Assembly (NCBI GenBank): GCA_000004985.1
Contig: GG738863.1
DNA: 64,000 nucleotides
Strand: one strand, 5' to 3'
Source: Naegleria gruberi
Lineage: Eukaryota
The position numbers and the translations under genes are program-made. Below, one piece after another: positions 1 through 46,006 of this stretch. The notes under the pieces are model-generated. The model searched no databases and was not told the origin of the DNA. It saw only the letters and a program-made list of their open reading frames with translations. How positions within the stretch are numbered: the stretch's first letter is position 1; every line of letters begins with the position of its first letter.

Positions 1-27
1 AAACATTTCATATGAAAAATTACTTAC

Positions 28-998
28 TTTTGGAGGAAGGCATGTAATTCTGATGGAACTGTAACCATAGGAGCACTCAGAACCATTCCATTAATAAATG
101 CAGGTCTTTCAATGGACATGTACATGGCCACAGTAGCTCCAATTCCTTGTCCAAAGAGGAATATTGGTTTTCTTGGATTATGTTGACTTGTAGAGGTACT
201 ATTCTTTCCATGTTGAGCAAATCCATCATAACTTTCAACATCTGATTGTCTGGCAATATCCAGATTAGGTAAAAGTGGTTGAGCTGATGGAAAATGATCA
301 ACTTCCACCAAACCAGATATAATTTCCATTATAGATTTCATTTTAGAAGGTGAATATATCTGATCCACAACTGTTTCCATATTTCCACTTGATTTTGACT
401 TTCTTTTTAAACCAGAAGTCAAACTTTTTCTATTTTTGGAAATATTCAACTCTGTTTCTGAAGAAAATGATAAAGACAATATTTCTTTACCTTCCTTATC
501 ACAAGTATTCAAATGTAGAGTTCCATTTGCAATCAAATCCAAAAACTGAATTCCATTTTGTAACCACATTGTAAAGTCGTCAATAAATGCTGGTTTTCCA
601 TCTGATTTTCCATGACCTTCCATATCGAATGAAAACACAGCAAAATGCCTCGATAATAACTCATTAGTAAGTGTTGAATATCTGCCAGCTTTTTGTAAAC
701 TTGTTTGAAAAATTTACAATTTGTTTTTTAACTTACAATGCTCGTTGAGTCCGTGACAAATAATTACAACACCACGAATCTTTAAATCTGATGGACACCA
801 TACTTGATAATGGATTCTACTAGATGGTATTTTAGATTTGATGGATTTCGAACTGGTTGAACTGTCAGTTGTCGAAGAATTTGATGGATCATTAGATGAC
901 ACATCCCTGTTCACATTTTGATAGTTGCATTGGAAATAACCTGCTTGTTGGAAGGATGAAACGTTGAACGATCCGAATGATGAAAAGCTTCTTAACAT
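28..998 (-). CDS. alpha/beta-hydrolase, monoacylglycerol-lipase/Hydrolase_4-like; 3'-partial (continues beyond window start). Exons 737-998 and 28-688; 48-nt GT-AG intron 689-736
   Basis: Joining ORF 714-998 to ORF 24-638 across the intron gtaagt...aaaaag restores the family motif HGLNEH-SGRY (splice-spanning codon tct=Ser). This is followed by FDMEGHGKSDG and ...ERPAFINGMVLSAPMV, which aligns to MGLL after the nucleophile elbow. The apparent stop TAA at 24-26 overlaps a consensus donor (CAAAA|GTAAGT at 22-27), and the catalytic Asp/His region is missing, so more exons must lie outside the window. Nucleophile elbow reads GQGIG, not GHSMG. Confidence 0.7.
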
Positions 999-2123
999 TT
1001 TTTTTTAAAATGGTTTTGGCAGGTGACTTTGAAAGGTCAATAACAGTTCCGTCGTTTTTTTAAATATGATCAATCTATCTCTTCAGTTTTTGTAATTGTG
1101 GTCAGCATGCAACATTCTTATAATCAACATGTTTCGGTTAGAATACCTCTTATTTGATTATTAGAAACAAAACTAAACATTTATTTTGAACCATTTTTAC
1201 ACCTTTTGTAAAGGGTATTTCAGTCTGTTTAAATTCTCCTCACTTCTCAGTCCTATCTTCATCTCAGTTTATCCCGAAATATGAAACGATGAGTTTCACA
1301 AAGTTTCCAATATCTGCACGGGTGTGGACGAATCCTTTCCTCACCAAACCTCTTATAAACTCCTTCAGTTGACCATTGGTATGTTTCAATTTCAAATAAT
1401 ATTCGATATTCAGGAACCAAAAGTTAAAAATACGAAACAACTTAAACTTTACAATGCATCAATTCTTAGAATTAAATGTAGCAATCACACGGCAACTAAA
1501 AAAAGAATTGGAGAAGGCAAAACTGCAGTTAAGGATCATGAATGGTGATTGCTGGAAAAACGGCCTGAAGTGATCTCTGTAGTTTTTTATCAAACACACA
1601 TATTTACTGCTTCACAAATGATAGAATGTATTCTTAAGTTTAATGTCGTTCCATTCAATATTGAATCAGTTTTTGAAAAATAGTATATAGCTTGTCGATA
1701 GGAGTATGGGAACTATTCGAAATTATTAGTTTTGTAAAATGTTTGGAAAAAGTGCAAAGTTATCTCCTTTCAATTTCGAACTTTCAAGACCTCACAATCT
1801 CATTGACATCAATGTTTCACTGAATCTCTACTGACCTTTCGAATAAACATTAAATATATTATTTAATACAATACATTAAAATTCCACAATCCAACAAATA
1901 AACTGTAAATCGATTCCCACTCAATTCAAATGAGATACGCAATCTTAAAGTGAACCTTATCGTTGTATTCACTTTACAGTTTCCTTCTAGGTTGTGAAAA
2001 TTGAAAGCTGACGTTGAAGACTGACACGAAGAAAGACACAACAACAAAAACGAGAAAACCGCAAAACAACAAGCGCTTCATCCTTTTAAAAAAAATAATC
2101 TACATCCTATTATCAACTGCCAA

Positions 2124-4247
2124 ATGTCACCTAAAAATTTCATCTTGGCATGTTGCCTTCTCTTCATCCTTCTCACGAGCTCAACGCTCCTGATCTCCCC
2201 AACACAAAGCAAGGAATCTCCTTCATCTGATTTCGAACTATTGGTCAAACAATTAGTCATCCAAAAAAAACAACTTGGTGACAAGTGGAATCCTAAAAAA
2301 TTTATTCCAACTCGTGTTCGTAAAATAATGAAAAAGCTTGCAATTTCACTTCCAGAAAAATGTGCCAGAAGAGAAAATCAAGTTTCTGATATTTTGATTG
2401 AACAAATTCGTGATTTATCGAAATGTTTTTCTGAAAAGAAGAAATGTCCAAAATTGAATTATGAATTGACTTGTAAATGTGGACAAGAAAGAATTAGAAA
2501 GACTAAATTGGTAAATGGATTGAATTGTCCTTATTTTGAATGTAGAAAGAAGGATCAACCAACTGTTAAATGTCCATTAATTTTCACACAAGATCAGAAA
2601 TGTAAAGAAGGATATTATCAAGTTGTTAAAAAGGTTAAATTTGGAAAATTGGATTGTGATAGAAAGGTTTGTGTCAAGAAGGTTGAAAAATGTCCAGAAA
2701 TTTCAGTCAATTGTGCTGCTGGAGAAACTAGACAAGCTTCCAGAGATGAGAAAGGATGTCCAGTTGTTACTTGTACTAAATTGACTTGTCCACCTGAATT
2801 TACTGACAAGACTAAGGTTAAATGTAGAGATGGATGGACTTTATCTGAACAACAAGTTAATTATCAATCAATTACTTGTAATATGTTGAAATGTGTCAAG
2901 ACTCCATGTCCAAGAGAATTGAGAGAAACTCGTTCTATTAAATGTAAGGTTGGACAAAGAGTTGTCAGAAAGGTTGTCACTATTAATGGAAGAGAATGTG
3001 GTAAATATGAATGTGAAGACATTGTCTGTCCACAAGAATCCAAACCACAATGTGCAGATGGTCAAGTTGCAAGAGAAATTTCAGTTTGGTATCATGGAAA
3101 GAAGTGTAATGCTTTCAGATGTATGCATGATCAATGTCCAACTGTTGAAACAAAGGAATGTAATCCAGAAACTGAACAAGTTAAAGTTTTAACATTCAAG
3201 ACTGATTCTGGATTGACCTGTTATAGACAAGAATGTGAAAAGAAGAAGAAGACTTGTAAGAATGTCTGTGTTAATTATTCTCAAAGAGCTGGCAAATGTG
3301 TCAGATATGAAATGAAAGGAGAACAACAAAGATGTATCAAATGGTCATGGACTGGTTCAAATAACTGTATTGAAGAAAAGATTGTCAATCAATGTGTTAG
3401 ATATGTTCAAGGTGGTCAAACTTGTACCAATAAGAAGGTTGTTACTTCATGTGCTCGTGAAGGAAGCAGACAAGAATGTACCAAATACGGTGAAAAGGAA
3501 GTTTGTGCTGAGAGAGCTGATAAGGCAGTTTGTGAAAGATACAGCACCAGAGTTGTTGGGTGTAACAAGTACAATGAAGTCACTTCATGTGCTCAATGGA
3601 ATTCCATTCCAAAGACCAAATGTAAAGCTGTCAAGTATTGTGTTAAGGAACTTCCATCCAGAACTGAAAAGTACTGTACTGCCTACAAGAAGCAATGTCA
3701 AAAGGGTAAACGTGAAGTTTGTACCACAACTACTTGTCCTTGCAATAAGAAGCCAGTTACCAAGTGTAGAACTTACTACTTTGATGGATGTTGTGAAAGC
3801 AAGTGTCAATCTTGGGCAACTCGTACTGTTCCAGGAAAGTGTACTGCCTATGGATACAAACAAGAATGCACTCCAAATGGAAGTGAACGTGTCTGTGCCA
3901 AATATAAGAGCACAAAGGAATGTGTCTCTCCACGTACTGAAAAGATTTGTACCAGATGGACCAAGACTAGTTCTGAAGTCTGTTCAAAGAAGGAGAAGAT
4001 TAGTGTTTGTTTATCTTCCAAATATACCAAATATTGTGCTGAAACTACTCAAAAGGAAGTTTGTGAATCATGGGCTGTCACCAATGCCAGATGTGCTGAA
4101 TATAAGCAAAGCAAGGTCTGTATCAGAAAGAGTGAAGGTCAAAAGATTTGTCAACAATACCAAAGCTTTGGTGGTGAACAAGTTTGTGTTGAAAAATCAA
4201 AGGAAGATGTTTGTGCCGAATATAAGCAAATGTGTACCTACGAATAA
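2124..4247 (+). CDS. secreted cysteine/lysine-rich repeat protein (707 aa), unknown function
   Basis: Uninterrupted 707-codon ORF. Hydrophobic N-terminal signal-like segment MSPKNFILACCLLFILLTSSTLLISP. A Cys falls about every 8-12 residues throughout, with recurring C-x-E/K-Y-K-x-x-K-x-C units (e.g. CAEYKQSKVC, CAEYKQMC, CTAYKKQCQKGKREVC). AATAAA-like motif just after the stop. Confidence 0.7.
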   Translation: MSPKNFILACCLLFILLTSSTLLISPTQSKESPSSDFELLVKQLVIQKKQLGDKWNPKKFIPTRVRKIMKKLAISLPEKCARRENQVSDILIEQIRDLSKCFSEKKKCPKLNYELTCKCGQERIRKTKLVNGLNCPYFECRKKDQPTVKCPLIFTQDQKCKEGYYQVVKKVKFGKLDCDRKVCVKKVEKCPEISVNCAAGETRQASRDEKGCPVVTCTKLTCPPEFTDKTKVKCRDGWTLSEQQVNYQSITCNMLKCVKTPCPRELRETRSIKCKVGQRVVRKVVTINGRECGKYECEDIVCPQESKPQCADGQVAREISVWYHGKKCNAFRCMHDQCPTVETKECNPETEQVKVLTFKTDSGLTCYRQECEKKKKTCKNVCVNYSQRAGKCVRYEMKGEQQRCIKWSWTGSNNCIEEKIVNQCVRYVQGGQTCTNKKVVTSCAREGSRQECTKYGEKEVCAERADKAVCERYSTRVVGCNKYNEVTSCAQWNSIPKTKCKAVKYCVKELPSRTEKYCTAYKKQCQKGKREVCTTTTCPCNKKPVTKCRTYYFDGCCESKCQSWATRTVPGKCTAYGYKQECTPNGSERVCAKYKSTKECVSPRTEKICTRWTKTSSEVCSKKEKISVCLSSKYTKYCAETTQKEVCESWAVTNARCAEYKQSKVCIRKSEGQKICQQYQSFGGEQVCVEKSKEDVCAEYKQMCTYE

Positions 4248-4299: not shown

Positions 4300-6084
4300 T
4301 TAATGTCTAATATTACAATGAGTCAATATTTTGAGAAACACTTCTTTTGGTACATTTTCAAAGGTCTGTAAATCCTTTTCCATTACTTTTAGAGCAATTT
4401 CAATATCAGTCAACAGTTCATGTGATAAATGAGATAACCTAGTCCCATCTTTAACATATTGTAAATATTGTAAAACCACTTGCTTATCCCTTTGCAATTC
4501 ATAAGAGGCATGTAAAAAACATTCTGTATGTTTTTGGATAGCTGTCATTACAAAATCTCTATCAGCCTTCAATGCAAAAGATGCACTTTTAAATGCATTT
4601 CCATTTTGCTCAATTGCTTGTAAAACAATTTCCTTATCATTTCTCAATTCCTCTGAGGCAAATTCAAGTGCCAATCCATCTTGGTTAACAGCAACTGTTA
4701 CAATTTCCTCATCATTTCTCAATCGCTCAGAAGCGTGTTTGAGTAGAGTTCCTGCTTGACCAACAGCTAGTAACATTAATTCCTTATCATTTTTCTTGTC
4801 CTTACTCGCTTTTCGAAGAGATCCTGTTTTTAATTTGAAAGCTGTCATTAGCAATTCCCTGTCATCTTGTAAATTGAGAGAAGCATAATCAATAGGTTGC
4901 TTACTCCATCGCACAGATCTCGTGTTAATGGCTTGTAAAACTATTTCACGATCATTTCTGAGTTTGGATGATGCGTATTTAAGCGAAATTCCATTTTGAT
5001 TTATGGCAGATAAAACTATCTCCTTATTGTTTTGCAATTCCTTCGAAGCATATTCAAGAGCTAATCCATTTTGACACACAGCTTGTAAGACAATTTTCTT
5101 ATTCTTTTGGAACTCATATGACAAATATTTGAGAGATAGTCCATATAGCTTACAAGCTTGCATTACAATCTCCATATCATTCAATGACCGAGGAGATAAA
5201 TAGAAAACATATCCCTCCCAATTAAGAGCTTTCAAAATTAATTGCTTATCATTCCTCAATTCTTCAGAAGCATATCTTAATGCACCTTCACTTTGATTAA
5301 CAGCTTTCCAAACAAGTTCCCTGTCATTTTTCAATGAATAATTTAAATATTCTGGTTTGTGTCCTTCCTGTAAAATGGCCATCGAAATAACATTATTAGA
5401 AGCAAATCTAATTGCCTCTCCATTTTGTGAAATAGCTCTCAAAACAATACTCTTATCTCTCCTCAACTCTTCACTTGCAAATTCAAGTGCCAATCCATTT
5501 TGTTCAATTGCAATGTCTACAATTGTCTTTTCATTTTGTAATTCTTTATCCGCAAACGCGAGCGCTAATCCATTTTGAGAAAGAGCTTGCCTTACAACTT
5601 CCATATCTTTTTGTAATTCTTTGGAGGTATGGTTGAGAGCTAGCCCATTTTGCTTACAGGCACATATTGCAATTTCCTTATCATTTTTCAAGTCTTCACT
5701 TGCAAGTTGGAGTAATAATCCATTTCGAATAACAGATTGGTTGACTATTTGTTTATCATTTGTAAAATCTTTGAATCTCTTCAAAACATTTATATCATAA
5801 TCCAAAACCCGCAACACAAACGACTTTACAGACCAAAAATTCAGCTTATCTGCAATATACATTCCATTTGATTTTTGTAAATATTCAACAATATATTTAG
5901 CATCTCTCCAATTTATGAATAATTGATCTTTAAGTAATAAATGGGAAAGGATTGGAAAGAAAATTGTTTTAAATTTTAGAGAAGTGGGAACATCTCGGAT
6001 TTGAGTGGTGAGGAGAAGTGATGAATAATTACAATCTAAAATGATTGTGGTGAGTTGACCTCTCATGTTCTCCAAGTTTTCCAT
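4300..6084 (-). CDS. DUF4116-like tandem-repeat protein (594 aa)
   Basis: Continuous ORF. About 15 tandem ~24-aa repeats of the form L(Q/R)NDKEIVLxAIxQNGLAL(E/K)(F/Y)AS with E/K-L-Q/R-N-D-(K/R)-E-I-V periodicity, matching the DUF4116 repeat as I recall it. The N-terminal ~100 aa are non-repetitive. Confidence 0.6.
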   Translation of the reverse strand: MENLENMRGQLTTIILDCNYSSLLLTTQIRDVPTSLKFKTIFFPILSHLLLKDQLFINWRDAKYIVEYLQKSNGMYIADKLNFWSVKSFVLRVLDYDINVLKRFKDFTNDKQIVNQSVIRNGLLLQLASEDLKNDKEIAICACKQNGLALNHTSKELQKDMEVVRQALSQNGLALAFADKELQNEKTIVDIAIEQNGLALEFASEELRRDKSIVLRAISQNGEAIRFASNNVISMAILQEGHKPEYLNYSLKNDRELVWKAVNQSEGALRYASEELRNDKQLILKALNWEGYVFYLSPRSLNDMEIVMQACKLYGLSLKYLSYEFQKNKKIVLQAVCQNGLALEYASKELQNNKEIVLSAINQNGISLKYASSKLRNDREIVLQAINTRSVRWSKQPIDYASLNLQDDRELLMTAFKLKTGSLRKASKDKKNDKELMLLAVGQAGTLLKHASERLRNDEEIVTVAVNQDGLALEFASEELRNDKEIVLQAIEQNGNAFKSASFALKADRDFVMTAIQKHTECFLHASYELQRDKQVVLQYLQYVKDGTRLSHLSHELLTDIEIALKVMEKDLQTFENVPKEVFLKILTHCNIRH

Positions 6085-9940: not shown

Positions 9941-10711
9941 TGATTTCTCTTATATACAATTATTCTAAAGGTTTAGTTTCGATTATTGTTCTCTTCAAAC
10001 TTGTCTTTTATTAAGAATTTGTTGTTGGAAATTTTTGTATAAAGACAGCGTTGTCTGCGTTGTAATAACAATCTAACGTTTTTTTTTGATTTGTTGACAT
10101 TGACGTTTGGCATCATAGTTCCGTTATGAGGCTTTGTGTTGAACGATATAATTATTAAAATAAAGTTAATTGGCTTAGTACGTTGAAGAAAGTGGATCAG
10201 TGATAAGAACTGACCTTCAGTTACATGTTTCCACTGGTTTAGTTTCTTTCGACTACTTTCCTTTATGTTTAAAAGAGAATGATAAGGTGTTGATGAATGT
10301 CAATTGTTGGACTACTTGCGGGTTCAATAATGGAAATTTTCAATCACCATCAAAAATAATACAAATTAGTACAAAAACACTTTCATTTGAAAAAGAAAAT
10401 AAAAAAATTGAAATGCAAATTCTTGGTTCTTACAACCATCGTCAAATTTGAACTGAATGGACCCTGGAAATAATTTTCAAATTCAACAAATTTTGTACTC
10501 AAAAATCGTAAAATTAATAAAAATGTTAGTTTTAAATGAATTCAAACAGAAATTGTAAACCCTCATTGTAAAATGTTAAATTATAATCCACCAAATACAG
10601 AAAACAAATGTCTTAAATTGGCAGATCAAAACCAAACATTAAATCCCATTGGATTTCTTTTTTAACAAGATTACAACAGGTCACTTGTCGATTATTTTCA
10701 TCGATAAAAAA

Positions 10712-12001
10712 ATGTCTCAACACCTGTCATTAAAATATCTACTATTACTTGCATTTTTGCAATTTCTCACACTCCAACTCCTCACCACACATGCCTACAT
10801 TATCAATATTGAAAGTTTTAATCCGACTTATTTACAATTTTGCTTGTCGGATGCCAAAAACTCTTCACAAGTTTTCACAAATGTTCAAATCATGACTTAT
10901 GACTGGGAAACAAATATTGAAAATCCAGTTTTGACATATTATCCAATGCAGAATTATGCTAAAAATTGCTATTATTTGGGAGCTCCCACAAATGCTCATA
11001 TTTTCTTTCTTCCAGCTACTGTAAAGTTTTCCATAAATGGAAATGAACAGGTTGAGTTGAAGAATATAATTTCACAAATGAGTGTTATGAAAATAGATAC
11101 TTCAACTGTTAATCAAACTATTTCTCATGCAAACGAATTGAAAATTCCAATTGCAAATCAAACATTTGCCTATCAAACAGTTGTAACCTATTTCACACCA
11201 AATGCAGGAGCTTGTCAATTGAATCCAATTCCAACTGAATATGCCACCATGTATGCAGCCATTAGAGTTCAGGATTGGTCAACTTCCAGAGTTTGTGGTC
11301 AATGTTTACGTCTATGCAATGCCACTGGTCATTCTGTTGAAGTTTTAGTTACTGACATGTGTCCATTTCCTAATTTATGTACCAGATACAATTGGTTAGA
11401 TATAAGTGATACTGCCTTTAATTATCTGAGTGGAGGAAACTTGGGATGGGGAGTTCAACAATTAACTTGGAGATTTGTCCAATGCACAAAATTCAAATCT
11501 TCAACTCCATCACCAAATATGAGTTTTCTCTTTACTGATTACTCGAGAAATTATGGATTTGAATTACAAGTGAGAAATTTCAATATTGGATTGAAATCTG
11601 TCGATATTCAAAGTAAAGTTCAGGGAAATTGGATTTCATTGAATAGAACTGAGGGAAATACTTGGTTATACACAACTGGAAATGTTATTACATGTCCATG
11701 TAGAGTGAGATTGACATCCATTTCTGGACAGGTTGTTATTGATGAAAATGCAGTCAACCAAGACATTGGATCACTTCCTAAAAAACCAGAATATTTGAAT
11801 ACAACTGTTCAATTTGATAACATTCCAAGTGGATATGAAAGTTCCAATTCATGCATTCCTTCAGTATTCAATCCAATCACTCCAATCACTTCTACCAATC
11901 AACCAAGAGGTTCAAACAGTTCGAGAATGGTAAATGCTTCCTCAACACATTTCATTAATGGATTCATTGCTTTAAGCTGTTTATTATTATTCTTCTTTTA
12001 A
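10712..12001 (+). CDS. expansin-like protein (DPBB + CBM63-like) with signal peptide and C-terminal hydrophobic anchor
   Basis: First ATG gives MSQHLSLKYLLLLAFLQFLTLQLLTTHA (signal-like). Expansin motifs present: GAC, CGQCLRL, VLVTDMCP, GWGVQQLTWRFVQC. The HFD motif is WLD here. A second beta-sandwich-like domain follows. The C-terminal FIALSCLLLFFF is a TM/GPI-like anchor. Confidence 0.65.
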   Translation: MSQHLSLKYLLLLAFLQFLTLQLLTTHAYIINIESFNPTYLQFCLSDAKNSSQVFTNVQIMTYDWETNIENPVLTYYPMQNYAKNCYYLGAPTNAHIFFLPATVKFSINGNEQVELKNIISQMSVMKIDTSTVNQTISHANELKIPIANQTFAYQTVVTYFTPNAGACQLNPIPTEYATMYAAIRVQDWSTSRVCGQCLRLCNATGHSVEVLVTDMCPFPNLCTRYNWLDISDTAFNYLSGGNLGWGVQQLTWRFVQCTKFKSSTPSPNMSFLFTDYSRNYGFELQVRNFNIGLKSVDIQSKVQGNWISLNRTEGNTWLYTTGNVITCPCRVRLTSISGQVVIDENAVNQDIGSLPKKPEYLNTTVQFDNIPSGYESSNSCIPSVFNPITPITSTNQPRGSNSSRMVNASSTHFINGFIALSCLLLFFF

Positions 12002-17929: not shown

Positions 17930-19009
17930 ATGCTGTCAGATTCTAATTCCTTCATGATGGAAGATCAACAAATGCCTCCTTCTTCGTCATCTTCTTCTGC
18001 TTCTTCTTCCCCTGCTCCTTCCTCTCCACTTTCACCTCATCATACAGCAACTTTTGAAACAAACATGCTTGATGAATATGGAAGCAGTATCAATCACCCT
18101 TCTAAGCCACTTAACACAACAAATACAGCAACAACAACACTAAATAATGCATCCAACAATAATATAGAACACATGAGATCAGCTGGCAATGATGATTCTT
18201 TACCACCTATTGCTTCCATACCACCAAACAATTCAACTTCTCGTGTTGTTAATGTTGGGCCAATTATGAATGCAATTCAAGCTTATAGTGGTAATAATGG
18301 TAATAGTACACTTGTTGATAATGTAAATGTCAGAATATCCTCCGCCTCATCTTCATGTTCAACCATTTCAGATCATTCTATGAATAATACAATGATTAAT
18401 GGACAAGCACCAAAACCACTTAATGATTTTGAAAATGTATTTGCTAGTTTCAAGAAGAGAAATAGAGAACAATACGAAAATAATAATCAATCCTCGTCAT
18501 CATCTGATCCAGTTTCATATATTAGAGATTTGGAAGATAAAATTGATTTTATGGCACAATTAGTCACTATTCAATCTGCCAAAATGAGAAAGATGGAAAT
18601 GAGATTGAAAAAATTGGAAAACTTACTTCCTCAATCAGGGGATGAATTTGTAAATTCAGGCAATCTTCATCGTATGCCACATAGTGATGAGTTATCATCA
18701 ATTAGTGATGATATACCAACATTTTCAGCACCAAAGAAGGAAAAGGGTAATAGACAACCTAATGCCTATAATATTTTCATGAAGGGAGAAATTCAACGTA
18801 TTCGAACAACTCACACAGAATTAACACAAAAACAGGCATTTAAACTTGCTGCCAATAATTGGACTTTGAAGAAATCTGAAATCCTTGGAGCTTCAAATGG
18901 TTCACAGAAAAAACCAGACGACAGAACTAGCACAGTAAGCACACCTAGTGATACTACCATGGCAGATTCACTTTCTGAAACACCACTCAATCAACTTGAC
19001 GAAAAGTAA
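17930..19009 (+). CDS. nuclear protein with C-terminal YABBY-type (HMG-box-like) DNA-binding domain, 359 aa
   Basis: Continuous ATG ORF. S/N-rich low-complexity N-terminal half and a coiled-coil-like segment. C-terminal RQPNAYNIFMKGEIQRIRTTHTELTQKQAFKLAANNWTL closely follows the YABBY domain pattern P-SAYNRFIKEEIQRIK...H-EAF-AAKNW, within the HMG-box-like fold. Confidence 0.6.
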   Translation: MLSDSNSFMMEDQQMPPSSSSSSASSSPAPSSPLSPHHTATFETNMLDEYGSSINHPSKPLNTTNTATTTLNNASNNNIEHMRSAGNDDSLPPIASIPPNNSTSRVVNVGPIMNAIQAYSGNNGNSTLVDNVNVRISSASSSCSTISDHSMNNTMINGQAPKPLNDFENVFASFKKRNREQYENNNQSSSSSDPVSYIRDLEDKIDFMAQLVTIQSAKMRKMEMRLKKLENLLPQSGDEFVNSGNLHRMPHSDELSSISDDIPTFSAPKKEKGNRQPNAYNIFMKGEIQRIRTTHTELTQKQAFKLAANNWTLKKSEILGASNGSQKKPDDRTSTVSTPSDTTMADSLSETPLNQLDEK

Positions 19010-19280
19010 AGATTTAATTTTTCAAATATGATGACCCATTCATCAGATTTACTATTATCAAGAGTTGACCAACCTGGCCATTCAAAATTTCTATTTCTTC
19101 TAGGAAAGGATGTGGATTGCCTCTTGGATTTGATGAGAAAAAGGTCTTTTTAGATTTTTCAAAGAAAAAGAATCTTCACAACTCATGTTTCCTAATACCA
19201 ACAACATTCAATAATTTATTATCATTTTGCAAAACAGAAATATACTTTAACAGATAATAATATGGCATTCGGATCGTGCG

Positions 19281-20097
19281 NNNNNNNNNNNNNNNNNNNN
19301 NNNNNNNNNNNNNNNNNNNNNNNNNNNNNNNNNNNNNNNNNNNNNNNNNNNNNNNNNNNNNNNNNNNNNNNNNNNNNNNNNNNNNNNNNNNNNNNNNNNN
19401 NNNNNNNNNNNNNNNNNNNNNNNNNNNNNNNNNNNNNNNNNNNNNNNNNNNNNNNNNNNNNNNNNNNNNNNNNNNNNNNNNNNNNNNNNNNNNNNNNNNN
19501 NNNNNNNNNNNNNNNNNNNNNNNNNNNNNNNNNNNNNNNNNNNNNNNNNNNNNNNNNNNNNNNNNNNNNNNNNNNNNNNNNNNNNNNNNNNNNNNNNNNN
19601 NNNNNNNNNNNNNNNNNNNNNNNNNNNNNNNNNNNNNNNNNNNNNNNNNNNNNNNNNNNNNNNNNNNNNNNNNNNNNNNNNNNNNNNNNNNNNNNNNNNN
19701 NNNNNNNNNNNNNNNNNNNNNNNNNNNNNNNNNNNNNNNNNNNNNNNNNNNNNNNNNNNNNNNNNNNNNNNNNNNNNNNNNNNNNNNNNNNNNNNNNNNN
19801 NNNNNNNNNNNNNNNNNNNNNNNNNNNNNNNNNNNNNNNNNNNNNNNNNNNNNNNNNNNNNNNNNNNNNNNNNNNNNNNNNNNNNNNNNNNNNNNNNNNN
19901 NNNNNNNNNNNNNNNNNNNNNNNNNNNNNNNNNNNNNNNNNNNNNNNNNNNNNNNNNNNNNNNNNNNNNNNNNNNNNNNNNNNNNNNNNNNNNNNNNNNN
20001 NNNNNNNNNNNNNNNNNNNNNNNNNNNNNNNNNNNNNNNNNNNNNNNNNNNNNNNNNNNNNNNNNNNNNNNNNNNNNNNNNNNNNNNNNNNNNNNNN
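19281..20097. other. assembly gap (817 N)
   Basis: Run of n characters. ORFs reported inside it are artefacts. Confidence 0.99.
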
Positions 20098-20102
20098 ATT
20101 TA

Positions 20103-20783
20103 TTGTGGAATGATTATTTGAATTCTGTTCAACAATTTCAATTGGAACCCAATAATACTCATCATTATCATCCATTGAAAACATTCAAGGCGAGAGTGAA
20201 GAATTTCTCTGGAGTTTTACTTTCCTCTCCAACAATTTCAATGAGTTTCATATATAATCAGGTATTTTGGATTACACCTTATGGAAAGGGTGATTCGTCC
20301 AATAATTTTGAATATTATAGGGAGAGAATTGAGAGAGCTATTTCAAATTTCAATTTGCATGTGTTAAAGTTTTTGGTTGTGCCTGTTTTACGGATATTCC
20401 CTTCACTTCCATTGTATCCACCATTTGGAATACCGTGTGCTCAACCAAAATGCAGAGAACGTTTCCAAAATGATGCTCTACTTTACAAGGGCTACTGGAA
20501 GAGTTCAACATCTATTTCCATTTTGGAAGAGATGAGGAGTGTGAAAATTTTACTGGCCTCCTTTAATCCTGACCAATCTCAATCCACACAGAACGTACCC
20601 ACACTCATTGTATACGGAGAATCTGATAATTTCTTCTCGTGGGACGAAACTAAACATCTCTTCTCCAAACATTTTCAAAATATAACATGGAAATCATATC
20701 CCAATCTTAAACACGACGTTTTCCATGAGGATGTTAAAGAACCAGTGTGCAGAGATTTATACAACCTTGTTGTAAGAAACTGA
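20103..20783 (+). CDS. C-terminal part of a second MGLL-like alpha/beta hydrolase (5' part lies in the gap)
   Basis: The open frame emerges directly from the gap with no ATG. ...LLYKGYWK...VPTLIVYGESDNFFSWDETKHLFSKHF...YPNLKHDVFHE aligns to the MGLL C-terminal half, including the catalytic Asp (GESD) and His (KHDVFHE) positions. Confidence 0.6.
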   Translation: MWNDYLNSVQQFQLEPNNTHHYHPLKTFKARVKNFSGVLLSSPTISMSFIYNQVFWITPYGKGDSSNNFEYYRERIERAISNFNLHVLKFLVVPVLRIFPSLPLYPPFGIPCAQPKCRERFQNDALLYKGYWKSSTSISILEEMRSVKILLASFNPDQSQSTQNVPTLIVYGESDNFFSWDETKHLFSKHFQNITWKSYPNLKHDVFHEDVKEPVCRDLYNLVVRN

Positions 20784-23046: not shown

Positions 23047-23140
23047 ATAGATTTAAATCTCATAAAACCAAAAAACTAATGGTTAACAAACCGTTCACTT
23101 GTATTCGAAAGTTGAAATAATATGAAATTATCATAAAAAG

Positions 23141-23212
23141 AGAGGTATCGGCGATTCGAACCCCGGACCTGAAGATGTGCTGTCTACCGCTCTCCCACTG
23201 AGCTAATACCCC
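23141..23212 (-). tRNA. tRNA-like gene, anticodon GCA (Cys-like) but atypical; possibly a pseudogene
   Basis: Reverse complement folds as acceptor GGGGTAT/ATACCTC (one G-U pair), D-arm GCTC-AGTGGGA-GAGC, anticodon arm GTAGA-CAGCACA-TCTTC, variable loop AGGTC, T-arm CGGGG-TTCGAAT-CGCCG. Sequence resembles eukaryotic tRNA-Cys. Deviations: A at the normally invariant U33, C37, a U-U mismatch in the anticodon stem and a G-G mismatch in the T-stem. Confidence 0.5.
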
Positions 23213-25450: not shown

Positions 25451-27158
25451 ATGATTAAAACACTTTCATTCATACTACTAGTGTTATTATCACTCTATTC
25501 TATTATATCTTTCATTAGAGCTCAAGAAAGATTCATTAATGTCAAGTATTCAATTAAAACTTTGATTGGAACTGGTGCTGGAATATTTAACTTGGATGGG
25601 TTGACTGGATTGGCTACTAATATTAATTCACCTATTGGCGTGTTTTATGAAGAGAGTAGTGGTGATTTGAATTTCTCACATACATGTAAGTTTCATACTT
25701 TCGAATAATAATTTTCATGTTATTCGAAACAACAGTAAACAATACAGTAAGAGTTTTGAGAAACTCATCNNNNNNNNNNNNNNNNNNNNNNNNNNNNNNN
25801 NNNNNNNNNNNNNNNNNNNNNNNNNNNNNNNNNNNNNNNNNNNNNNNNNNNNNNNNNNNNNNNNNNNNNNNNNNNNNNNNNNNNNNNNNNNNNNNNNNNN
25901 NNNNNNNNNNNNNNNNNNNNNNNNNNNNNNNNNNNNNNNNNNNNNNNNNNNNNNNNNNNNNNNNNNNNNNNNNNNNNNNNNNNNNNNNNNNNNNNNNNNN
26001 NNNNNNNNNNNNNNNNNNNNNNNNNNNNNNNNNNNNNNNNNNNNNNNNNNNNNNNNNNNNNNNNNNNNNNNNNNNNNNNNNNNNNNNNNNNNNNNNNNNN
26101 NNNNNNNNNNNNNNNNNNNNNNNNNNNNNNNNNNNNNNNNNNNNNNNNNNNNNNNNNNNNNNNNNNNNNNNNNNNNNNNNNNNNNNNNNNNNNNNNNNNN
26201 NNNNNNNNNNNNNNNNNNNNNNNNNNNNNNNNNNNNNNNNNNNNNNNNNNNNNNNNNNNNNNNNNNNNNNNNNNNNNNNNNNNNNNNNNNNNNNNNNNNN
26301 NNNNNNNNNNNNNNNNNNNNNNNNNNNNNNNNNNNNNNNNNNNNNNNNNNNNNNNNNNNNNNNNATTCGAAAGTTTGTGGAACTAATGGAAAATGTCTGA
26401 CAATTGACAAGTGTGTTTGTAAAGATGGATTTTATGGTCTTGATTGTTCACTTCCTATTTGTTTGAAAGCAGAAAATGGAAAGTGTGCTAATGATACAAC
26501 AGGTGTAACTGTAGAAAATATTGAAACAAGTCAATTGTCAAACAAATCAATTTCTCTTAGTTCAGGAAATTTGACAGAAAGTTCAGTAGTTTCAGTTTCC
26601 TTTCCTTCTGATTTTTCTCATTATATTTCCAATCAAACAACCTTCTCATCAGTTTCTCTACTCACAGCGGTTTCTACAAGCGGAAACAATTTGACAAACT
26701 CAAATTCTGCTTTCTCCATAGTTTCGAATATAATCACAATTTCACTTGCCTTAACAAATGGAAAAAAGATTCCAGTTTCTAATTTGGAAAATCCTATACA
26801 AATCTCATTCCAAAAACCAACAAGTTATTCTGGAAATTTGACATGCATGTACTTGGACGAATTGACCAATGAATGGAAATCAGATGGTGTGAAAACTGTT
26901 ATTGAACCATTAACAGTCAATTGTCTGACTTCTCATTTAACTTCCTTCTCGGTAATTGATATTAATCTCAGGAAGGAAATTGGAAAACCAAAAGAATCAC
27001 CGAGTGTCAGTAATCAAACAATTTCACAAAGTCAACTCTCTCAAGAAGCTATCATTGCAATCTCAGTATCAATTGCTGGAAGCTTCATTGTTTGTTGTGT
27101 TGTTGCAATAATCCTGTCAGCTGTTATCTGCTTAATAAGAAGAAAATCGAAGAAGTAA
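25451..27158 (+). CDS. single-pass membrane protein: signal peptide + (gap) + EGF-like + Ser/Thr-rich stalk + GPS (GAIN-type) motif + TM; interrupted by an assembly gap. Exon 1 25451-25685, 50-nt intron 25686-25735, exon 2 25736->25769, resumes <26365-27158
   Basis: MIKTLSFILLVLLSLYSIISF is signal-like. Donor ACAT|GTAAGT and acceptor aacaacag keep the frame open into the gap. After the gap: ...CGTNGKCLTIDKCVCKDGFYGLDCSLPICL (EGF-like), then a NxS/T-rich region, NLTCMYLDELTNEWKSDGV...NCLTSHLTSFSVID (GPS-like), TM IIAISVSIAGSFIVCCVVAIILSAVICLI and an RRKSKK tail. Paralogous to the gene at 37256-40992. Confidence 0.6.
25770..26364. other. assembly gap (595 N)
   Basis: Run of n characters inside the gene above. 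Confidence 0.99.
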
Positions 27159-37255: not shown

Positions 37256-40200
37256 ATGAACAACAAGATAGTTTCGGTTACTTTATTGTTCTTTCTAATA
37301 ATTGCATGTACTATAGAGTTGTCAAGCTCAGAACCAGCCCAATACACAATCAACAAATTGATTGGTCCCATTGCGGGGGATGGTAAGCCAAAAGAACAAG
37401 TTGGTTTCTACACCATTTACACCTTTACAATTGCACCTTTAAATGGTCAAATGATTGTAAACGAAAATGGAGCTGTAAAACAATTTTCACTTGATTCTGG
37501 CGCGCAAGGTTTAGTTTCTGTTATTCCTGGACTCAAAATATATTCTTCTTCTTCTTCAGTTAATGGTCAATCAACAGTGGTTTCGAATAGTGATGGAAGT
37601 GAATTGTATTACCTTGAAGAAAATTTGATAAAGAGATGGAAAAGCGGTGTGGTCAGTGTTATTGCTGGAAATGGTGTTATAGAAAATATTTACTATTTGA
37701 ACGAAACAGTTGCCACTCAAACTTTCTTAAATTCTCCAACGAGTTTAGTTTATCAAGACGATTGTTTATACATTGCTGGATATGGTATTGCCAAGTTGAA
37801 TTTAACCACTGGAATGATCAGTACTACATTTAGAATTGGTTTTATTACAGACATGTCCATTTCCACATTTGATGGATACATGTACTATTTACAAAATGAT
37901 CAATTGAAGAGATGTTCATTTTCTTCTGGTTGTTTAAATCAAGAGAATGTAATATCCAATTTGTTTATGAACACTTTTACTCTATCTTCAAATAGAAATG
38001 AATTATTCTATTTCTTTGGTAATCAAATTTACAGATTTAACATTACAACCAGAATTTCCACATCCATTTATCAAATTTCCTCATCAAATACTTATAAATT
38101 GGCTTACAGAAATGATATGATCTACTTTGCAGAAGGTTTTAAAATCAAGAAGAAATCAGTGGTGGATGGTTCACTTAGTGTTGAAGCTGGAAATGGATAT
38201 TATGGATATGTGGCTGAGAATGTGCCATCTCTACAAGCTGGTACTGCTGGTTATACTGTTTCAAGTATTGCATTGAGAAATGGAGAATTGTATTATGCTG
38301 ATATGAATATCATAAAAAGATGAANNNNNNNNNNNNNNNNNNNNNNNNNNNNNNNNNNNNNNNNNNNNNNNNNNATATTTTCAGTGGTTCGAATGTGAAA
38401 GGAGATTCAATTGCATTACAAACTGAAATTAGTCCTGGATCAATTTCATTCTCTAAAAATGGAGAATTACATTTTGTTGATTATTCAAATATTGTTAGAA
38501 AACTTTCAGATAATGGAAATTTGTCATATGTTGGAGGAAATCCCTCTTCATTTGTTAGTAGTGATGGTACCGATGCATCAAAAGCTATCATTTCACCTTC
38601 TAAAGTTATTGAAATAGGTAATGAACTGATTATTTTAGAGTATCAAAAAATTAGAAAGGTTTCGTCTGAAGGAACAATCTCCACAATTATTGGTGGAGGT
38701 ATCTATCCATTTGTTGAAGGTGCATTGGCTACAAATACCTCCTTTACATCACTTCAGGATGTTGCAGTCAGTCCAATTGACAATTCTATTTATTTTATTG
38801 ACGCTAATTTCAATGCTATTCGAAAGTTGACTTCTACTGGAACAGTAATTACTTTATTCAGTACTTCTACGTATATTAACGCAATTGGAATAGATCAGAC
38901 TGGAATTATTTATTATAGTACTTCCAATTCGATTGGAAAATTGAATCCAGAAACTTTACAACAACAATTACTTTATTACAATACTGAAACATCCAGTTAT
39001 TTTTCAGTTTCTAATAGTGGTAATATTTATTATTTCGTAAATTGTAAAATTGTAATGATTGGAAATGGAACACTAAATGCACTTGCTGGAACAGGCACAT
39101 GCTTAACAGGATCATTATTTGATGGAATGAATGCAACACAAGATATTCCAAATGTGTATTCAGTTCATTATTCGAATCATGATAATCAATTATACTTTTC
39201 AACTGTGAATGGTATTTGGAAGATTGTTGATGGATTCATTCACAAGGTTGTCCAATCAATTCCAATGGCCAATGTAACTTCAACTGACTCTTCTAAATTT
39301 TTAAGTTTGCCAAGTTCATTGCTAGTTAAATCTAATGGAGATATTTTATTCATTGATGGAACAATTATTAGAAAGTACGATGTGCAACAAGATAGAATTG
39401 ACAATCTCTATATTGGAGATGGATCTATTGGTCCATTTTCGAATACATTTTCTTATTATTATTTCACAACATTCTGTGAAAATGAATTGGTCATTGTAAC
39501 TTCCAAAGGAATCAGACGAATTAATAGTGAAACATCAATAATGACACCTGTAACCTTTCCCTACCAATTTACGACTGTTAGGTCGTTTATTTCATGTTTG
39601 AATAATAATTTGTATTTCCTTGCTACTAATTTACAATCAATCAAGAAAGTTTCACTTTTAGATGGAAGTATTGATCATATTGCAGGTATTGCAGGTTCTT
39701 CTAGTCCATCACCTGATGGCAGTATTGCCAAATATTCAAAAATAGTTTCACTCATTAATTCAAGAGCGTTCGTTCTTCCAAACCAGGAAGTATTATATTT
39801 TGAAGGTCTAAAATTGAGAAAGATTGGTTTGGATGGAAAATGGCAAACCATTGCAGGAAATGGAAATTCTGGAACAACCCCAGATTTTTCTGAAAATGCA
39901 AAGAATGTACCTTTGACTATAGCTTTTTCATATGCTTATTCAGAGTTGAGTGGAACAATTTATTTAAGTTCAAATGGAATTTATTCACTGACACCTTATT
40001 GTAGAGATGGATACCAATTTGAAAACTCATTCAAAACATCATGTATTCCAATACCAGTTATTACTTGTTTTGGTAAGCTGGCCAATGATTCAAGTGTTTG
40101 TTCATCACGTGGTACTTGTACTGGAATGGATAACTGTCAATGCTCAAATTTGTACATTTCCTCTGATTGTTCTGTTTCATTGTGTCAAACTGAAAATGGA

Positions 40201-45934: not shown

Positions 45935-46006
45935 GGGACCATGGTCTAGTGGTATGATTCTCGCTTTGGGTGCGAGAGGCCGTGGGTTCGATTCCCACTG
46001 GTCCCC
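45935..46006 (+). tRNA. trnP(UGG): tRNA-Pro (anticodon TGG)
   Basis: GGGACCA-TG-GTCT-AGTGGTATGATT-CTCGC-TTTGGGT-GCGAG-AGGCC-GTGGG-TTCGATT-CCCAC-TGGTCCC forms a perfect cloverleaf with a 7-bp acceptor stem, U33, anticodon UGG, TTCGATT T-loop and discriminator C. Near-identical to canonical eukaryotic tRNA-Pro. Confidence 0.9.

What the first reader, a model, noticed from the sequence alone, without database searches (positions are those of the whole stretch)
24..998. MGLL-like hydrolase whose nucleophile elbow reads G-Q-G-I-G (Ser replaced by Gly): predicted pseudo-enzyme
The GXSXG nucleophile motif of alpha/beta hydrolases (GHSMG in monoacylglycerol lipases) is encoded here as ggacaaggaattgga = GQGIG. 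I confirmed this on the DNA at about positions 135-165, minus strand. Both the Ser and the preceding His are replaced. A ~100-aa low-complexity insertion also separates the HGxxEHSGRY/oxyanion region from the elbow. A second MGLL-like paralog at 20103-20783 keeps catalytic Asp/His-like positions, so this copy may be a regulatory or scaffolding dead enzyme.
Basis: partly seen in the sequence, partly recalled or inferred. Interest (0 to 1): 0.5.

Follow-up and report, generated by a model that had tools for sequence, protein, structure and literature searches.

The report
Serine-less monoglyceride-lipase-like protein of Naegleria
A gene of the amoeba Naegleria gruberi encodes a protein built like a monoglyceride lipase whose catalytic serine is replaced by glycine; a small group of related protists shares this change, so it is a real, conserved, probably non-catalytic "dead enzyme" and not a sequencing error or a decaying gene.

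Summary
Window 998..28 (minus strand) holds exons 1-2 of a eukaryotic gene, Naegleria gruberi NAEGRDRAFT_66550 / XP_002678154.1 / UniProt D2VCF2. It matches Pfam Hydrolase_4 (E=9e-29) and human MGL. G-Q-G-I-G (DNA 152..138) aligns on MGL's GHSMG, so Ser122 is replaced by Gly. A 114-aa insertion precedes the elbow.

The Gly is not an error. An independent contig about 97% identical has the same codons. The two alleles differ by 7 synonymous and 1 non-synonymous codon changes and no exon indels.

The missing 3' exon, recovered from that contig and the annotated protein, keeps the catalytic Asp and His.

An exhaustive search found a small protist clade (Willaertia magna plus unnamed contigs) that all lack the Ser. 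Members have Gly (GGA/GGT/GGC) or Ala. Some also lost the oxyanion HG (HE, HH, HD), and one lost the His (Asn). The lid and C-terminal motifs stay conserved.

Best reading: a conserved, non-catalytic MGL-fold protein, analogous to ABHD5. Ser-independent catalysis is not excluded.

The "paralog" at 20103-20783 is a distant Hydrolase_4 fragment whose elbow lies in an assembly gap. The reference gene model mis-splices intron 1. This is a new member of a known kind, of modest interest.

The parts
737..998 (-). Exon 1 (ATG at 998). Encodes a Ser-rich N-terminal extension, the first beta-strands and HGLNEH. It ends in phase 1, with codon S88 split across the intron.
   Evidence: The spliced product gives HGLNEHSGRY and a continuous Pfam Hydrolase_4 match over residues 74-142.
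689..736 (-). Intron 1, 48 nt, GTAAGT..AAAAAG. The RefSeq/JGI model uses a downstream acceptor and so deletes 24 conserved residues.
   Evidence: The same phase-1 intron position occurs in Willaertia and in L004.
28..688 (-). Exon 2. Encodes SGRY..FDMEGHGKSDG, the insertion, the GQGIG elbow and the start of the lid (..LHAFLQ).
1..27 (-). First 27 nt of intron 2 (GTAAGT...). The rest of the intron and exon 3 (Asp, His, stop) lie beyond the window edge.
   Evidence: L001 continues with a 48-nt intron and exon 3 (L001 1740..2160). The same C-terminus is present in P0157.
750..755 (-). Codons for H82-G83, the oxyanion-hole HG motif, retained in N. gruberi.
177..530 (-). Insertion of about 118 aa (residues about 141-258) between the helix after GHGKSDG and the elbow strand. 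It is Ser/Lys/Leu-rich and its length varies between lineages.
   Evidence: The shorter Willaertia insertion is modelled as lower-confidence helices (pLDDT 61-73).
138..152 (-). Nucleophile elbow G267-Q268-G269-I270-G271 (GGA CAA GGA ATT GGA). The Gly269 codon at 146..144 replaces the catalytic Ser.
20098..20783 (+). C-terminal fragment of a second, distantly related Hydrolase_4 gene that keeps Asp and His. It is NOT part of the focal gene. Its N-terminal half, including the elbow, lies in the gap 19281..20097. A possible ATG sits at 19262.

Best explanation
This is a real, selectively maintained gene of Naegleria gruberi (NAEGRDRAFT_66550). It encodes a 447-aa protein with the fold of a monoglyceride lipase / Hydrolase_4 alpha/beta-hydrolase.

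The common ancestor of a small protist clade replaced the elbow H-S-M with Q-G-I. The clade includes Naegleria, Willaertia and several unnamed eukaryotes known only from environmental or read-archive assemblies. Without a side chain at the nucleophile position, the protein cannot form the acyl-enzyme intermediate that defines the family's chemistry.

The gene has nevertheless been kept, with a well-conserved lid and C-terminal half. Some sister lineages went on to lose the oxyanion-hole Gly, and one lost the catalytic His. So the conserved function most likely does not depend on catalysis. The likely role is binding a lipid-like ligand and/or a protein partner in the retained pocket-and-lid architecture. 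That would make it a regulatory or scaffolding pseudoenzyme, comparable to ABHD5/CGI-58, which lost only its Ser yet keeps Asp and His and co-activates lipases.

Shown: the sequence, the homology, the fold of the ortholog, the Ser loss, its conservation, and purifying selection. Inferred: absence of hydrolase activity, and a ligand- or partner-binding role.
For: Family and fold:
- Pfam Hydrolase_4 at E=9.4e-29. The best PDB sequence matches are human MGL, with GQGIG aligned on GHSMG.
- The full-length alignment with hMGLL places Gly on Ser122, Asp on Asp239 and His on His269.
- The AF2 model of the Willaertia ortholog has pLDDT 84.8 and pTM 0.85, with GQGIG at the strand(177-182)-turn-helix(184-195) elbow. 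Its best solved fold is human MGL 3jw8_A, E=1.2e-27, TM 0.88, 2.4 A.

Not an error or a decaying gene:
- Independent contig L001 is 96.8% identical and has identical elbow codons.
- Exons show 9 substitutions in 923 nt, no indels, and 7 synonymous against 1 non-synonymous codon changes. Non-coding sequence shows 30 substitutions plus 27 indel positions in 795 nt. P(at most 1 non-synonymous of 8) is about 4e-4 under neutrality.

Conserved clade:
- An exhaustive phmmer search of 1.84 billion representatives gave nearest relatives that all carry GQG[IM]G or GDAIG.
- In an NJ tree with the elbow masked, the clade has 73/100 bootstrap support and Naegleria+Willaertia has 91/100. Bacterial GQGxG proteins never join it, 0/100.
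- The nucleophile-position Gly uses GGA, GGT and GGC in different members, and Ala uses GCT.

Erosion of other catalytic elements:
- L003/P0010 has HE in place of HG and Asn in place of His. L005/P0034 has HH. P0115 has HD.
- HG is lost in 3 of 8 clade members against 4 of 236 Ser-bearing homologs, Fisher P=7.7e-4.

Retained constraint elsewhere:
- The C-terminal half has 52% mean column identity, with clade-specific invariants W129, Q307-K308, C389 and D418.

Precedent:
- ABHD5 has Ser replaced by Asn153, retains Asp301 and His327, and is a lipase co-activator (PMC9694394). Non-catalytic alpha/beta-hydrolase-fold proteins are a recognised class (PMC5943944).
Against: - No biochemical data exist for any clade member.
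- N. gruberi, Willaertia, L004, P0011 and P0053 still keep HG, Asp and His. Asp is invariant in all seven members where it can be read. This could reflect a catalytic role that does not need Ser.
- The HG and His losses sit in a minority of members (P0010 and P0034 group together; P0115 is a 94-aa fragment). They may represent only two events, and each rests on a single contig.
- The Fisher tests are not corrected for phylogeny.
- The allele comparison rests on only 8 codon differences.
- Expression is not demonstrated. The two Logan contigs could not be shown to be transcripts.
- The structure was modelled for the Willaertia ortholog, not the N. gruberi protein, and the coordinates could not be inspected.
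Confidence: 0.6

Rival explanations
1. The protein is still an enzyme but uses Ser-independent chemistry. One option is that the retained His-Asp dyad and oxyanion hole activate a water molecule sitting in the cavity left by Ser-to-Gly. Another is that the invariant Cys389 acts as a surrogate nucleophile; this residue is equivalent to Cys242 of human MGL, which from my own knowledge lies next to the active site. A third is that the scaffold has been recruited to a different reaction.
For: HG, Asp and His are retained in 5 of 8, 7 of 7 and 6 of 7 readable clade members. Gly or Ala is strictly kept at the nucleophile position through synonymous codon change, suggesting a small residue is required and not merely tolerated. 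Cys389 is invariant in the clade and present in only 11% of background homologs. Independent bacterial Ser-less Hydrolase_4 proteins also mostly keep Asp and His. Variants with Cys (P0003) or Asp (P0144) at the nucleophile position show the family explores other nucleophiles.
Against: P0010 lacks both the His (Asn) and the HG Gly, and P0034 and P0115 lack the HG Gly, yet each keeps an intact, conserved gene. Asp/His retention without activity has a precedent in ABHD5. A small residue at the elbow is needed sterically for the strand-turn-helix whatever the catalytic state, so conservation of Gly/Ala is expected in either case. No geometric analysis of Cys389 was possible.
Confidence: 0.25
2. 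The Gly is a sequencing or assembly error, or the locus is a decaying pseudogene of an active MGL.
For: The window comes from a draft assembly with N gaps. Only one reference genome sequence underlies the window.
Against: An independent assembly has identical elbow codons. GGA to any Ser codon needs at least 2 changes. The reading frame is intact in both alleles, with 7 synonymous against 1 non-synonymous change and no exon indels, while flanking DNA has many. Gly or Ala sits at the same position in at least seven independent orthologous DNA sequences.
Confidence: 0.01
3. The true nucleophile elbow is elsewhere in the protein (in the insertion or the off-window exon), and GQGIG is only a look-alike turn.
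For: The window lacks the last exon. The 118-aa insertion is unaligned to any known structure.
Against: The full-length protein was rebuilt from L001 and P0157. No G-x-S-x-G occurs in exon 3 or in the insertion. HMMER, MAFFT and the AF2 model of the ortholog all place GQGIG at the canonical strand-turn-helix. The insertion is absent from basal clade members that also lack the Ser (P0053, P0115).
Confidence: 0.02

Closest known systems
Human monoglyceride lipase MGLL (PDB 3jw8, 3hju) and the Pfam PF12146 Hydrolase_4 / lysophospholipase family
   Same: Same fold and domain order. HG..EHSGRY, GHG.S.G, the elbow flanks (P.F..G...G, G..L.SP), DPL in the lid, the catalytic Asp (G[ST].D..C) and the catalytic His (G.YH) all align. 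The ortholog model superposes at TM 0.88. The Cys equivalent to MGLL C242 is conserved.
   Different: The elbow H-S-M is Q-G-I, so there is no nucleophile. Naegleria has a +114-aa insertion before the elbow strand, an N-terminal extension of about 60 aa, and clade-specific lid residues (LQK). It should not be filed as EC 3.1.1.23.
ABHD5 / CGI-58
   Same: An alpha/beta-hydrolase of lipid metabolism in which only the nucleophile Ser is replaced, while the Asp and His of the triad are kept. It functions non-catalytically as a co-activator of patatin-like lipases (PMC9694394). This is the best functional analogy.
   Different: It belongs to a different alpha/beta-hydrolase subfamily and is not a close homolog. 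Its replacement is Asn, not Gly. Its partners (ATGL, PNPLA1) and its Trp-rich lipid-droplet anchor are known, whereas nothing comparable is known here. The patatin gene 7.4 kb from the Willaertia ortholog is probably coincidental.
Neuroligins, gliotactin, neurotactin, glutactin and the thyroglobulin ChEL domain (non-catalytic cholinesterase-like proteins)
   Same: A recognised class of alpha/beta-hydrolase-fold proteins without a functional triad, used for protein-protein interaction (PMC5943944). From my own knowledge, the neuroligin nucleophile position is also Gly.
   Different: They are from the cholinesterase/carboxylesterase subfamily, are extracellular adhesion domains, and are restricted to metazoans.
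Bacterial-type Hydrolase_4 proteins with GQG[LMT]G / GHGLG elbows (e.g. P0049 'acylglycerol lipase', P0059 Polyangiaceae, P0101)
   Same: Same family and the same Ser-to-Gly replacement, often with the same preceding Gln. Asp and His are mostly kept.
   Different: They are scattered among canonical GHSMG sequences in the tree and never group with the protist clade, 0/100 bootstraps. These are independent losses that surfaced because the query carries the motif. They lack the insertion and the clade motifs.

Membership tests
Pfam PF12146 Hydrolase_4 (MGL / lysophospholipase-type alpha/beta-hydrolase fold) | Profile match above the curated gathering score | tested here: met
   100.8 bits against a cutoff of 27, E=9.4e-29, for the window-encoded 307 aa.
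Pfam PF12146 Hydrolase_4 (MGL / lysophospholipase-type alpha/beta-hydrolase fold) | Alpha/beta-hydrolase fold with a strand-turn-helix elbow and a helical lid | tested here: met
   Tested on the Willaertia ortholog only. AF2 gave pLDDT 84.8 and pTM 0.85. The top 24 Foldseek hits are human MGL or M. tuberculosis MGL (Rv0183) chains, best TM 0.88.
Monoacylglycerol lipase enzymes (EC 3.1.1.23) | Nucleophile Ser in G-x-S-x-G | tested here: not met
   GQGIG, with Gly269 on hMGLL Ser122. It is also absent in all clade members.
Monoacylglycerol lipase enzymes (EC 3.1.1.23) | Catalytic Asp and His | tested here: met
   GSEDEYC and GLYHDL align on Asp239 and His269. They lie in exon 3 outside the window, read from L001 and P0157.
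Monoacylglycerol lipase enzymes (EC 3.1.1.23) | Oxyanion-hole HG motif | tested here: met
   HGLNEHSGRY at residues 82-91. It is lost in 3 of 8 clade relatives.
Monoacylglycerol lipase enzymes (EC 3.1.1.23) | Hydrolysis of monoacylglycerols | not testable with these tools
   Needs a recombinant protein assay.
Non-catalytic alpha/beta-hydrolase-fold pseudoenzymes (ABHD5-like, neuroligin-like) | Hydrolase fold retained but the nucleophile replaced by a non-nucleophilic residue | tested here: met
Non-catalytic alpha/beta-hydrolase-fold pseudoenzymes (ABHD5-like, neuroligin-like) | The replacement is conserved among orthologs and the gene is under purifying selection, so it is not a pseudogene | tested here: met
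   A clade of about 9 clusters at 50% identity all has Gly or Ala. Synonymous Gly codons vary. The alleles differ by 7 synonymous against 1 non-synonymous change and no exon indels.
Non-catalytic alpha/beta-hydrolase-fold pseudoenzymes (ABHD5-like, neuroligin-like) | Demonstrated lack of hydrolase activity and a defined non-catalytic role (a partner or a ligand) | not testable with these tools
   The only indirect support is erosion of HG and His in some lineages.
Decaying pseudogene | Frameshifts, stop codons or neutral substitution pattern | tested here: not met
   The ORF is intact across three exons in two alleles, and dN is far below dS.

The most novel reading that the evidence does not exclude
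The heterolobosean GQGxG clade is a working protein with a new mode of action for the MGL scaffold. One possibility is an ABHD5-like co-activator of patatin-type lipases that arose independently in a protist. The other is a Ser-independent catalyst using the retained His-Asp dyad with water, or with the invariant Cys389 (equivalent to C242 of human MGL). Either would make it a natural example of how a serine-hydrolase active site is repurposed after losing its nucleophile.
Probability: 0.2. Interest if true: 0.6.

Novelty: new member of a known kind. Interest (0 to 1): 0.3.

Why it matters
Dead enzymes that keep their fold are often regulators; ABHD5 controls lipolysis in animals. A conserved Ser-less MGL-like protein in Naegleria and Willaertia points to an uncharacterised regulatory or lipid-binding component of lipid metabolism in free-living amoebae, a genus that includes the pathogen N. 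fowleri (from my own knowledge).

There are also practical consequences. Automatic annotation of clade relatives as 'lysophospholipase' or 'acylglycerol lipase' would over-predict enzyme activity for this clade. The N. gruberi gene itself is listed only as 'predicted protein'. Its reference gene model needs correcting, because it lacks 24 conserved residues.

The repeated, independent Ser-to-Gly replacements seen in bacterial Hydrolase_4 proteins suggest that loss of the nucleophile is a recurrent evolutionary route in this family.

Tried and rejected
I used the exon-2 product for the exhaustive search and the Willaertia ortholog for the model.
- The first word-indexed homolog search found only 7 hits and no orthologs except the second allele. 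The third, using a C-terminal profile, added no named members and even missed Willaertia. So presence or absence in N. fowleri could not be established.
- Both JGI metagenome scans returned nothing, one with the paralog fragment and one with the clade profile. A wider profile was too divergent to make search patterns.
- The AlphaFold DB library was unavailable.
- tblastn of hMGLL and of the focal protein against the window does not detect the 20103-20783 fragment. Only Pfam and hhalign do. I therefore rejected it as a close paralog and as evidence for an 'active copy'.
- I considered that bacterial GQGxG proteins and the protist clade form one family, possibly through horizontal transfer. I rejected this because the bacterial proteins are polyphyletic and never join the clade.
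- I considered whether Logan contigs L006 and L007 are transcripts, which would be expression evidence. The result is inconclusive: L006 carries the end of an upstream ORF and L007 starts in an adapter.
- Literature searches for the gene identifiers, for the metagenome project, and for Naegleria plus monoacylglycerol lipase found nothing relevant.
- No synteny was seen between the N. gruberi and Willaertia loci.

Full report
WHAT IS IN THE WINDOW

The window is eukaryotic. It has about 33% GC, is gene-dense, and has few and short introns. On the minus strand an ATG at 998 opens exon 1 (998..737). A 48-nt GTAAGT..AAAAAG intron (736..689) follows, then exon 2 (688..28). A second GTAAGT donor at 27 carries the gene off the window edge.

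The spliced 307-aa partial product matches Pfam Hydrolase_4 (E=9.4e-29, 100.8 bits). Its best solved relatives are human monoglyceride lipase chains. HMMER aligns ..KPIFLFGQGIGATVAM..ERPAFINGMVLSAP.. on ..LPVFLLGHSMGGAIAI..ERPGHFAGMVLISP...

The pentapeptide G-Q-G-I-G is encoded at 152..138 as GGA CAA GGA ATT GGA. Gly269 occupies the place of the catalytic Ser122 of MGL, and Gln268 that of His121. So is the long insertion: the spacing from GHG to the elbow is 148 residues against 34 in human MGL.

ORGANISM AND REST OF THE GENE

A first homolog search returned a 99%-identical fragment, P0001. It comes from a 3-kb ENA metagenome contig, L001. L001 is 96.8% identical to window 1..1706, so it is an independent allele or strain. 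It extends through a second 48-nt intron into the missing exon 3.

The cluster containing P0001 also holds Naegleria gruberi XP_002678154.1 / EFC45410.1 / NAEGRDRAFT_66550 / UniProt D2VCF2, named 'predicted protein'. Its sequence equals the window's translation, including Gly248 where L001 has Glu. The window is therefore most likely the N. gruberi NEG-M reference.

The full protein is 447 aa. Aligned with human MGL it keeps the catalytic Asp (GSEDEYC on Asp239) and His (GLYHDL on His269), the HG..EHSGRY oxyanion motif and the DPL lid motif. Only the elbow triplet H-S-M has become Q-G-I.

The annotated 423-aa model uses the same donor but a downstream acceptor. It reads ..HGLNEH-C-HGKSDG.. and so deletes 24 residues (SGRYSTLTNELLSRHFAVFSFDME). 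These residues are conserved in MGL and in every relative. The phase-1 intron position I propose is shared by the Willaertia and L004 orthologs.

ERROR OR DECAYING GENE?

Neither.
- The elbow codons are identical in L001, and GGA is at least two substitutions away from any Ser codon.
- Between the two alleles the exons carry 9 substitutions in 923 nt and no indels. These amount to 7 synonymous and 1 non-synonymous codon change.
- The 795 nt of flanking and intronic DNA carry 30 substitutions and 27 indel positions.
- The probability of at most 1 non-synonymous change among 8 under neutrality is about 4e-4.

The sample is small, but the direction is clear: the reading frame is under purifying selection.

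IS THE Ser LOSS CONSERVED?

I ran an exhaustive phmmer search of 1.84 billion representative proteins with the exon-2 product. The closest relatives all lack the Ser:
- P0008 (GQGIG, with an even longer insertion)
- P0009 = Willaertia magna KAL9648178.1 (GQGIG)
- P0010 (GQGMG)
- P0011 (GQGIG)
- P0053 (GQGIG)
- P0034 (G-D-A-I-G)
- fragments P0052 and P0115 (GQGIG)

Among all 270 homologs fetched, 244 have Ser.

About ten compact bacterial-type proteins also have GQG[LMT]G or GHGLG. The query contains the motif, which biases the hit list toward such proteins. I therefore built a neighbour-joining tree with the five elbow columns masked.
- The eukaryote-like Ser-less proteins form one clade (73/100 bootstraps), and Naegleria+Willaertia has 91/100.
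- The bacterial Ser-less proteins are scattered among GHSMG sequences and never join the clade (0/100).

So there was one ancient loss in this protist lineage, plus several unrelated losses in bacteria.

Contigs carrying P0010, P0034 and P0008/P0180 are eukaryotic: they have spliced genes and neighbours such as Ski2, RhoGEF/myosin-TH1, CENP-T and G6PD. At the DNA level the nucleophile-position Gly is GGA (N. gruberi, Willaertia, L004), GGT (L003, L006) or GGC (L007). In L005 it is Ala, GCT. A small residue has therefore been maintained through synonymous turnover.

WHAT THE CLADE SAYS ABOUT FUNCTION

I rebuilt the truncated gene calls from DNA and tabulated the catalytic elements.

| Member | Oxyanion motif | Elbow | Asp | His |
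|---|---|---|---|---|
| N. gruberi | HG | GQGIG | D | H |
| L004 | HG | GQGIG | D | H |
| Willaertia | HG | GQGIG | D | H |
| P0011 | HG | GQGIG | D | H |
| P0053 | HG | GQGIG | D | H |
| L003/P0010 | HE | GQGMG | D | N |
| L005/P0034 | HH | GDAIG | D | H |
| P0115 | HD | GQGIG | not readable | not readable |

The oxyanion-hole Gly is lost in 3 of 8 clade members against 4 of 236 Ser-bearing homologs (Fisher P=7.7e-4, not corrected for phylogeny). Yet all these genes remain intact.

The elbow-to-C-terminus half has 52% mean column identity. Its clade-specific invariants are W129, Q268-G269-I270, Q307-K308 at the start of the lid, C389 (equivalent to C242 of human MGL) and D418.

Continued selection on the fold, lid and pocket region, together with piecemeal erosion of catalytic elements, is what a protein looks like when its conserved role no longer requires hydrolysis.

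The insertion is not linked to the Ser loss. It is about 0 in P0053 and P0115, +30 to +44 in Willaertia, P0011, P0010 and P0034, and +114 to +122 only in N. gruberi and L004. In the Willaertia model it forms lower-confidence helices on the core.

STRUCTURE

The Willaertia ortholog, modelled with a 75-sequence alignment, gives pLDDT 84.8 and pTM 0.85. GQGIG lies between strand 177-182 and helix 184-195, the classical nucleophile elbow. Foldseek against the PDB puts human MGL first (3jw8_A, E=1.2e-27, TM 0.88 on the target, 2.4 A), followed by mycobacterial, archaeal and yeast MGLs.

MOST LIKELY MECHANISM

The protein most likely acts as a non-catalytic MGL-fold pseudoenzyme. It would bind a lipid-like ligand and/or a partner protein through the retained lid-and-pocket architecture.

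The nearest documented analogy is ABHD5/CGI-58. In that protein only the Ser is replaced (Asn153), Asp301 and His327 persist, and the protein co-activates patatin-like lipases (PMC9694394). Non-catalytic alpha/beta-hydrolase-fold proteins such as neuroligins are a recognised class (PMC5943944).

I put about 0.6 on this reading. About 0.25 goes to Ser-independent catalysis by the His-Asp dyad with water, or by Cys389. That rival is kept alive by the invariant Asp, the near-invariant His and the invariant Cys. Error, pseudogene and 'elbow elsewhere' are effectively excluded.

THE 'PARALOG'

Window 20103-20783 (+) is a Hydrolase_4 C-terminal fragment (E=8.6e-7). It aligns to the clade profile only distantly (hhalign 87% probability, 23% identity), with Asp and His in register. 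tblastn with MGL or with the focal protein does not find it.

It starts immediately after an 817-N assembly gap (19281-20097). A possible start codon lies at 19262, just before the gap. Its elbow is therefore unreadable, and it cannot be used to argue that an active copy exists alongside the dead one.

NOVELTY AND SCORE

No paper in the searchable library mentions the gene or a Naegleria MGL. The gene is annotated only as 'predicted protein', and some relatives as 'lysophospholipase'.

The phenomenon, an alpha/beta-hydrolase that lost its nucleophile and is retained, is well known. What is new is this particular MGL-family clade in heterolobosean-type protists, the evidence that it is conserved, and the corrected gene model. 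I rate it a new member of a known kind, with interest 0.3. It is a sound and tidy pseudoenzyme case with a testable ABHD5-like hypothesis, but a specialist would not find it surprising.

Noticed in passing
window 689-736 and 616-688 (minus strand): The RefSeq/JGI model XP_002678154.1 (423 aa) uses the same donor but a downstream acceptor. This deletes 24 conserved residues (SGRYSTLTNELLSRHFAVFSFDME) and turns Gly into Cys. The 48-nt intron proposed here restores the HG..EHSGRY..GHG block, and its position is shared by the Willaertia and L004 orthologs.
   Followed up: yes
window 177-530 (minus strand) versus L001: Seven of the 8 codon differences between the two N. gruberi alleles (6 synonymous, 1 non-synonymous) fall inside the 118-aa insertion, which is 38% of the compared codons (binomial P about 0.007). 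Synonymous change seems depleted in the conserved core. No explanation was tested.
   Followed up: partly
proteins P0019, P0049, P0058, P0059, P0088, P0101, P0155, P0263, P0003, P0144, P0120, P0143, P0237: Bacterial-type Hydrolase_4 proteins have repeatedly replaced the nucleophile Ser: with Gly (GQG[LMT]G, GHGLG), Cys (GQCIG), Asp (GQDLG) or Asn (GHN[LM]G, GKNIG). Most keep Asp and His, and several have also lost the HG Gly. They are polyphyletic in the tree. Their genomic contexts were not examined.
   Followed up: partly
window 19262-20783 (+), gap 19281-20097: A second Hydrolase_4-type gene is interrupted by an 817-N assembly gap. A possible ATG lies at 19262 (MAFGSC..), and the C-terminal 226 aa lie after the gap. 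The span suggests a protein of about 500 aa that may also carry an insertion. Its nucleophile is unknown.
   Followed up: partly
L002 18739-20498 (Willaertia magna JBEGDK010000109.1): A patatin-domain gene lies 7.4 kb downstream of the Willaertia ortholog. This recalls the ABHD5/ATGL partnership but is probably coincidental. The equivalent N. gruberi flank is outside the window.
   Followed up: no
window 935-952 (minus strand; residues 17-22), Willaertia P0009 residues 21-25, L004 exon 1: A short N-terminal motif, Q-[QS]-[AS]-G-[FY]-F, is shared by the N. gruberi, Willaertia and L004 proteins. It lies upstream of the hydrolase core, in a region modelled as disordered. The first 31 residues of the N. 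gruberi protein contain no acidic residue, which is presequence-like. Targeting was not tested.
   Followed up: no
window 2124-4247 (+): An intronless 707-aa ORF has a hydrophobic N-terminus and very many Cys in repeated K-C/C-x-x-C contexts. It has no Pfam match. It is transcribed divergently from the focal gene across a spacer of about 1.1 kb, which is where most indels between the two alleles lie.
   Followed up: no
window 4300-6084 (-), 54598-60468 (-), 10649-12001 (+), 17930-19009 (+): Neighbouring genes include a protein with 10 DUF4116 repeats (E=6e-151), a 1956-aa protein with an F5/8 type C (discoidin) domain, an expansin-C-like protein, and a protein with a YABBY-C/HMG-like domain. 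These helped to recognise a protist genome.
   Followed up: partly
window 23140-23212 (-), 45935-46006 (+), 25770-26364, 38325-38374: tRNA-Cys(GCA) and tRNA-Pro(TGG) genes, and two further assembly gaps.
   Followed up: no
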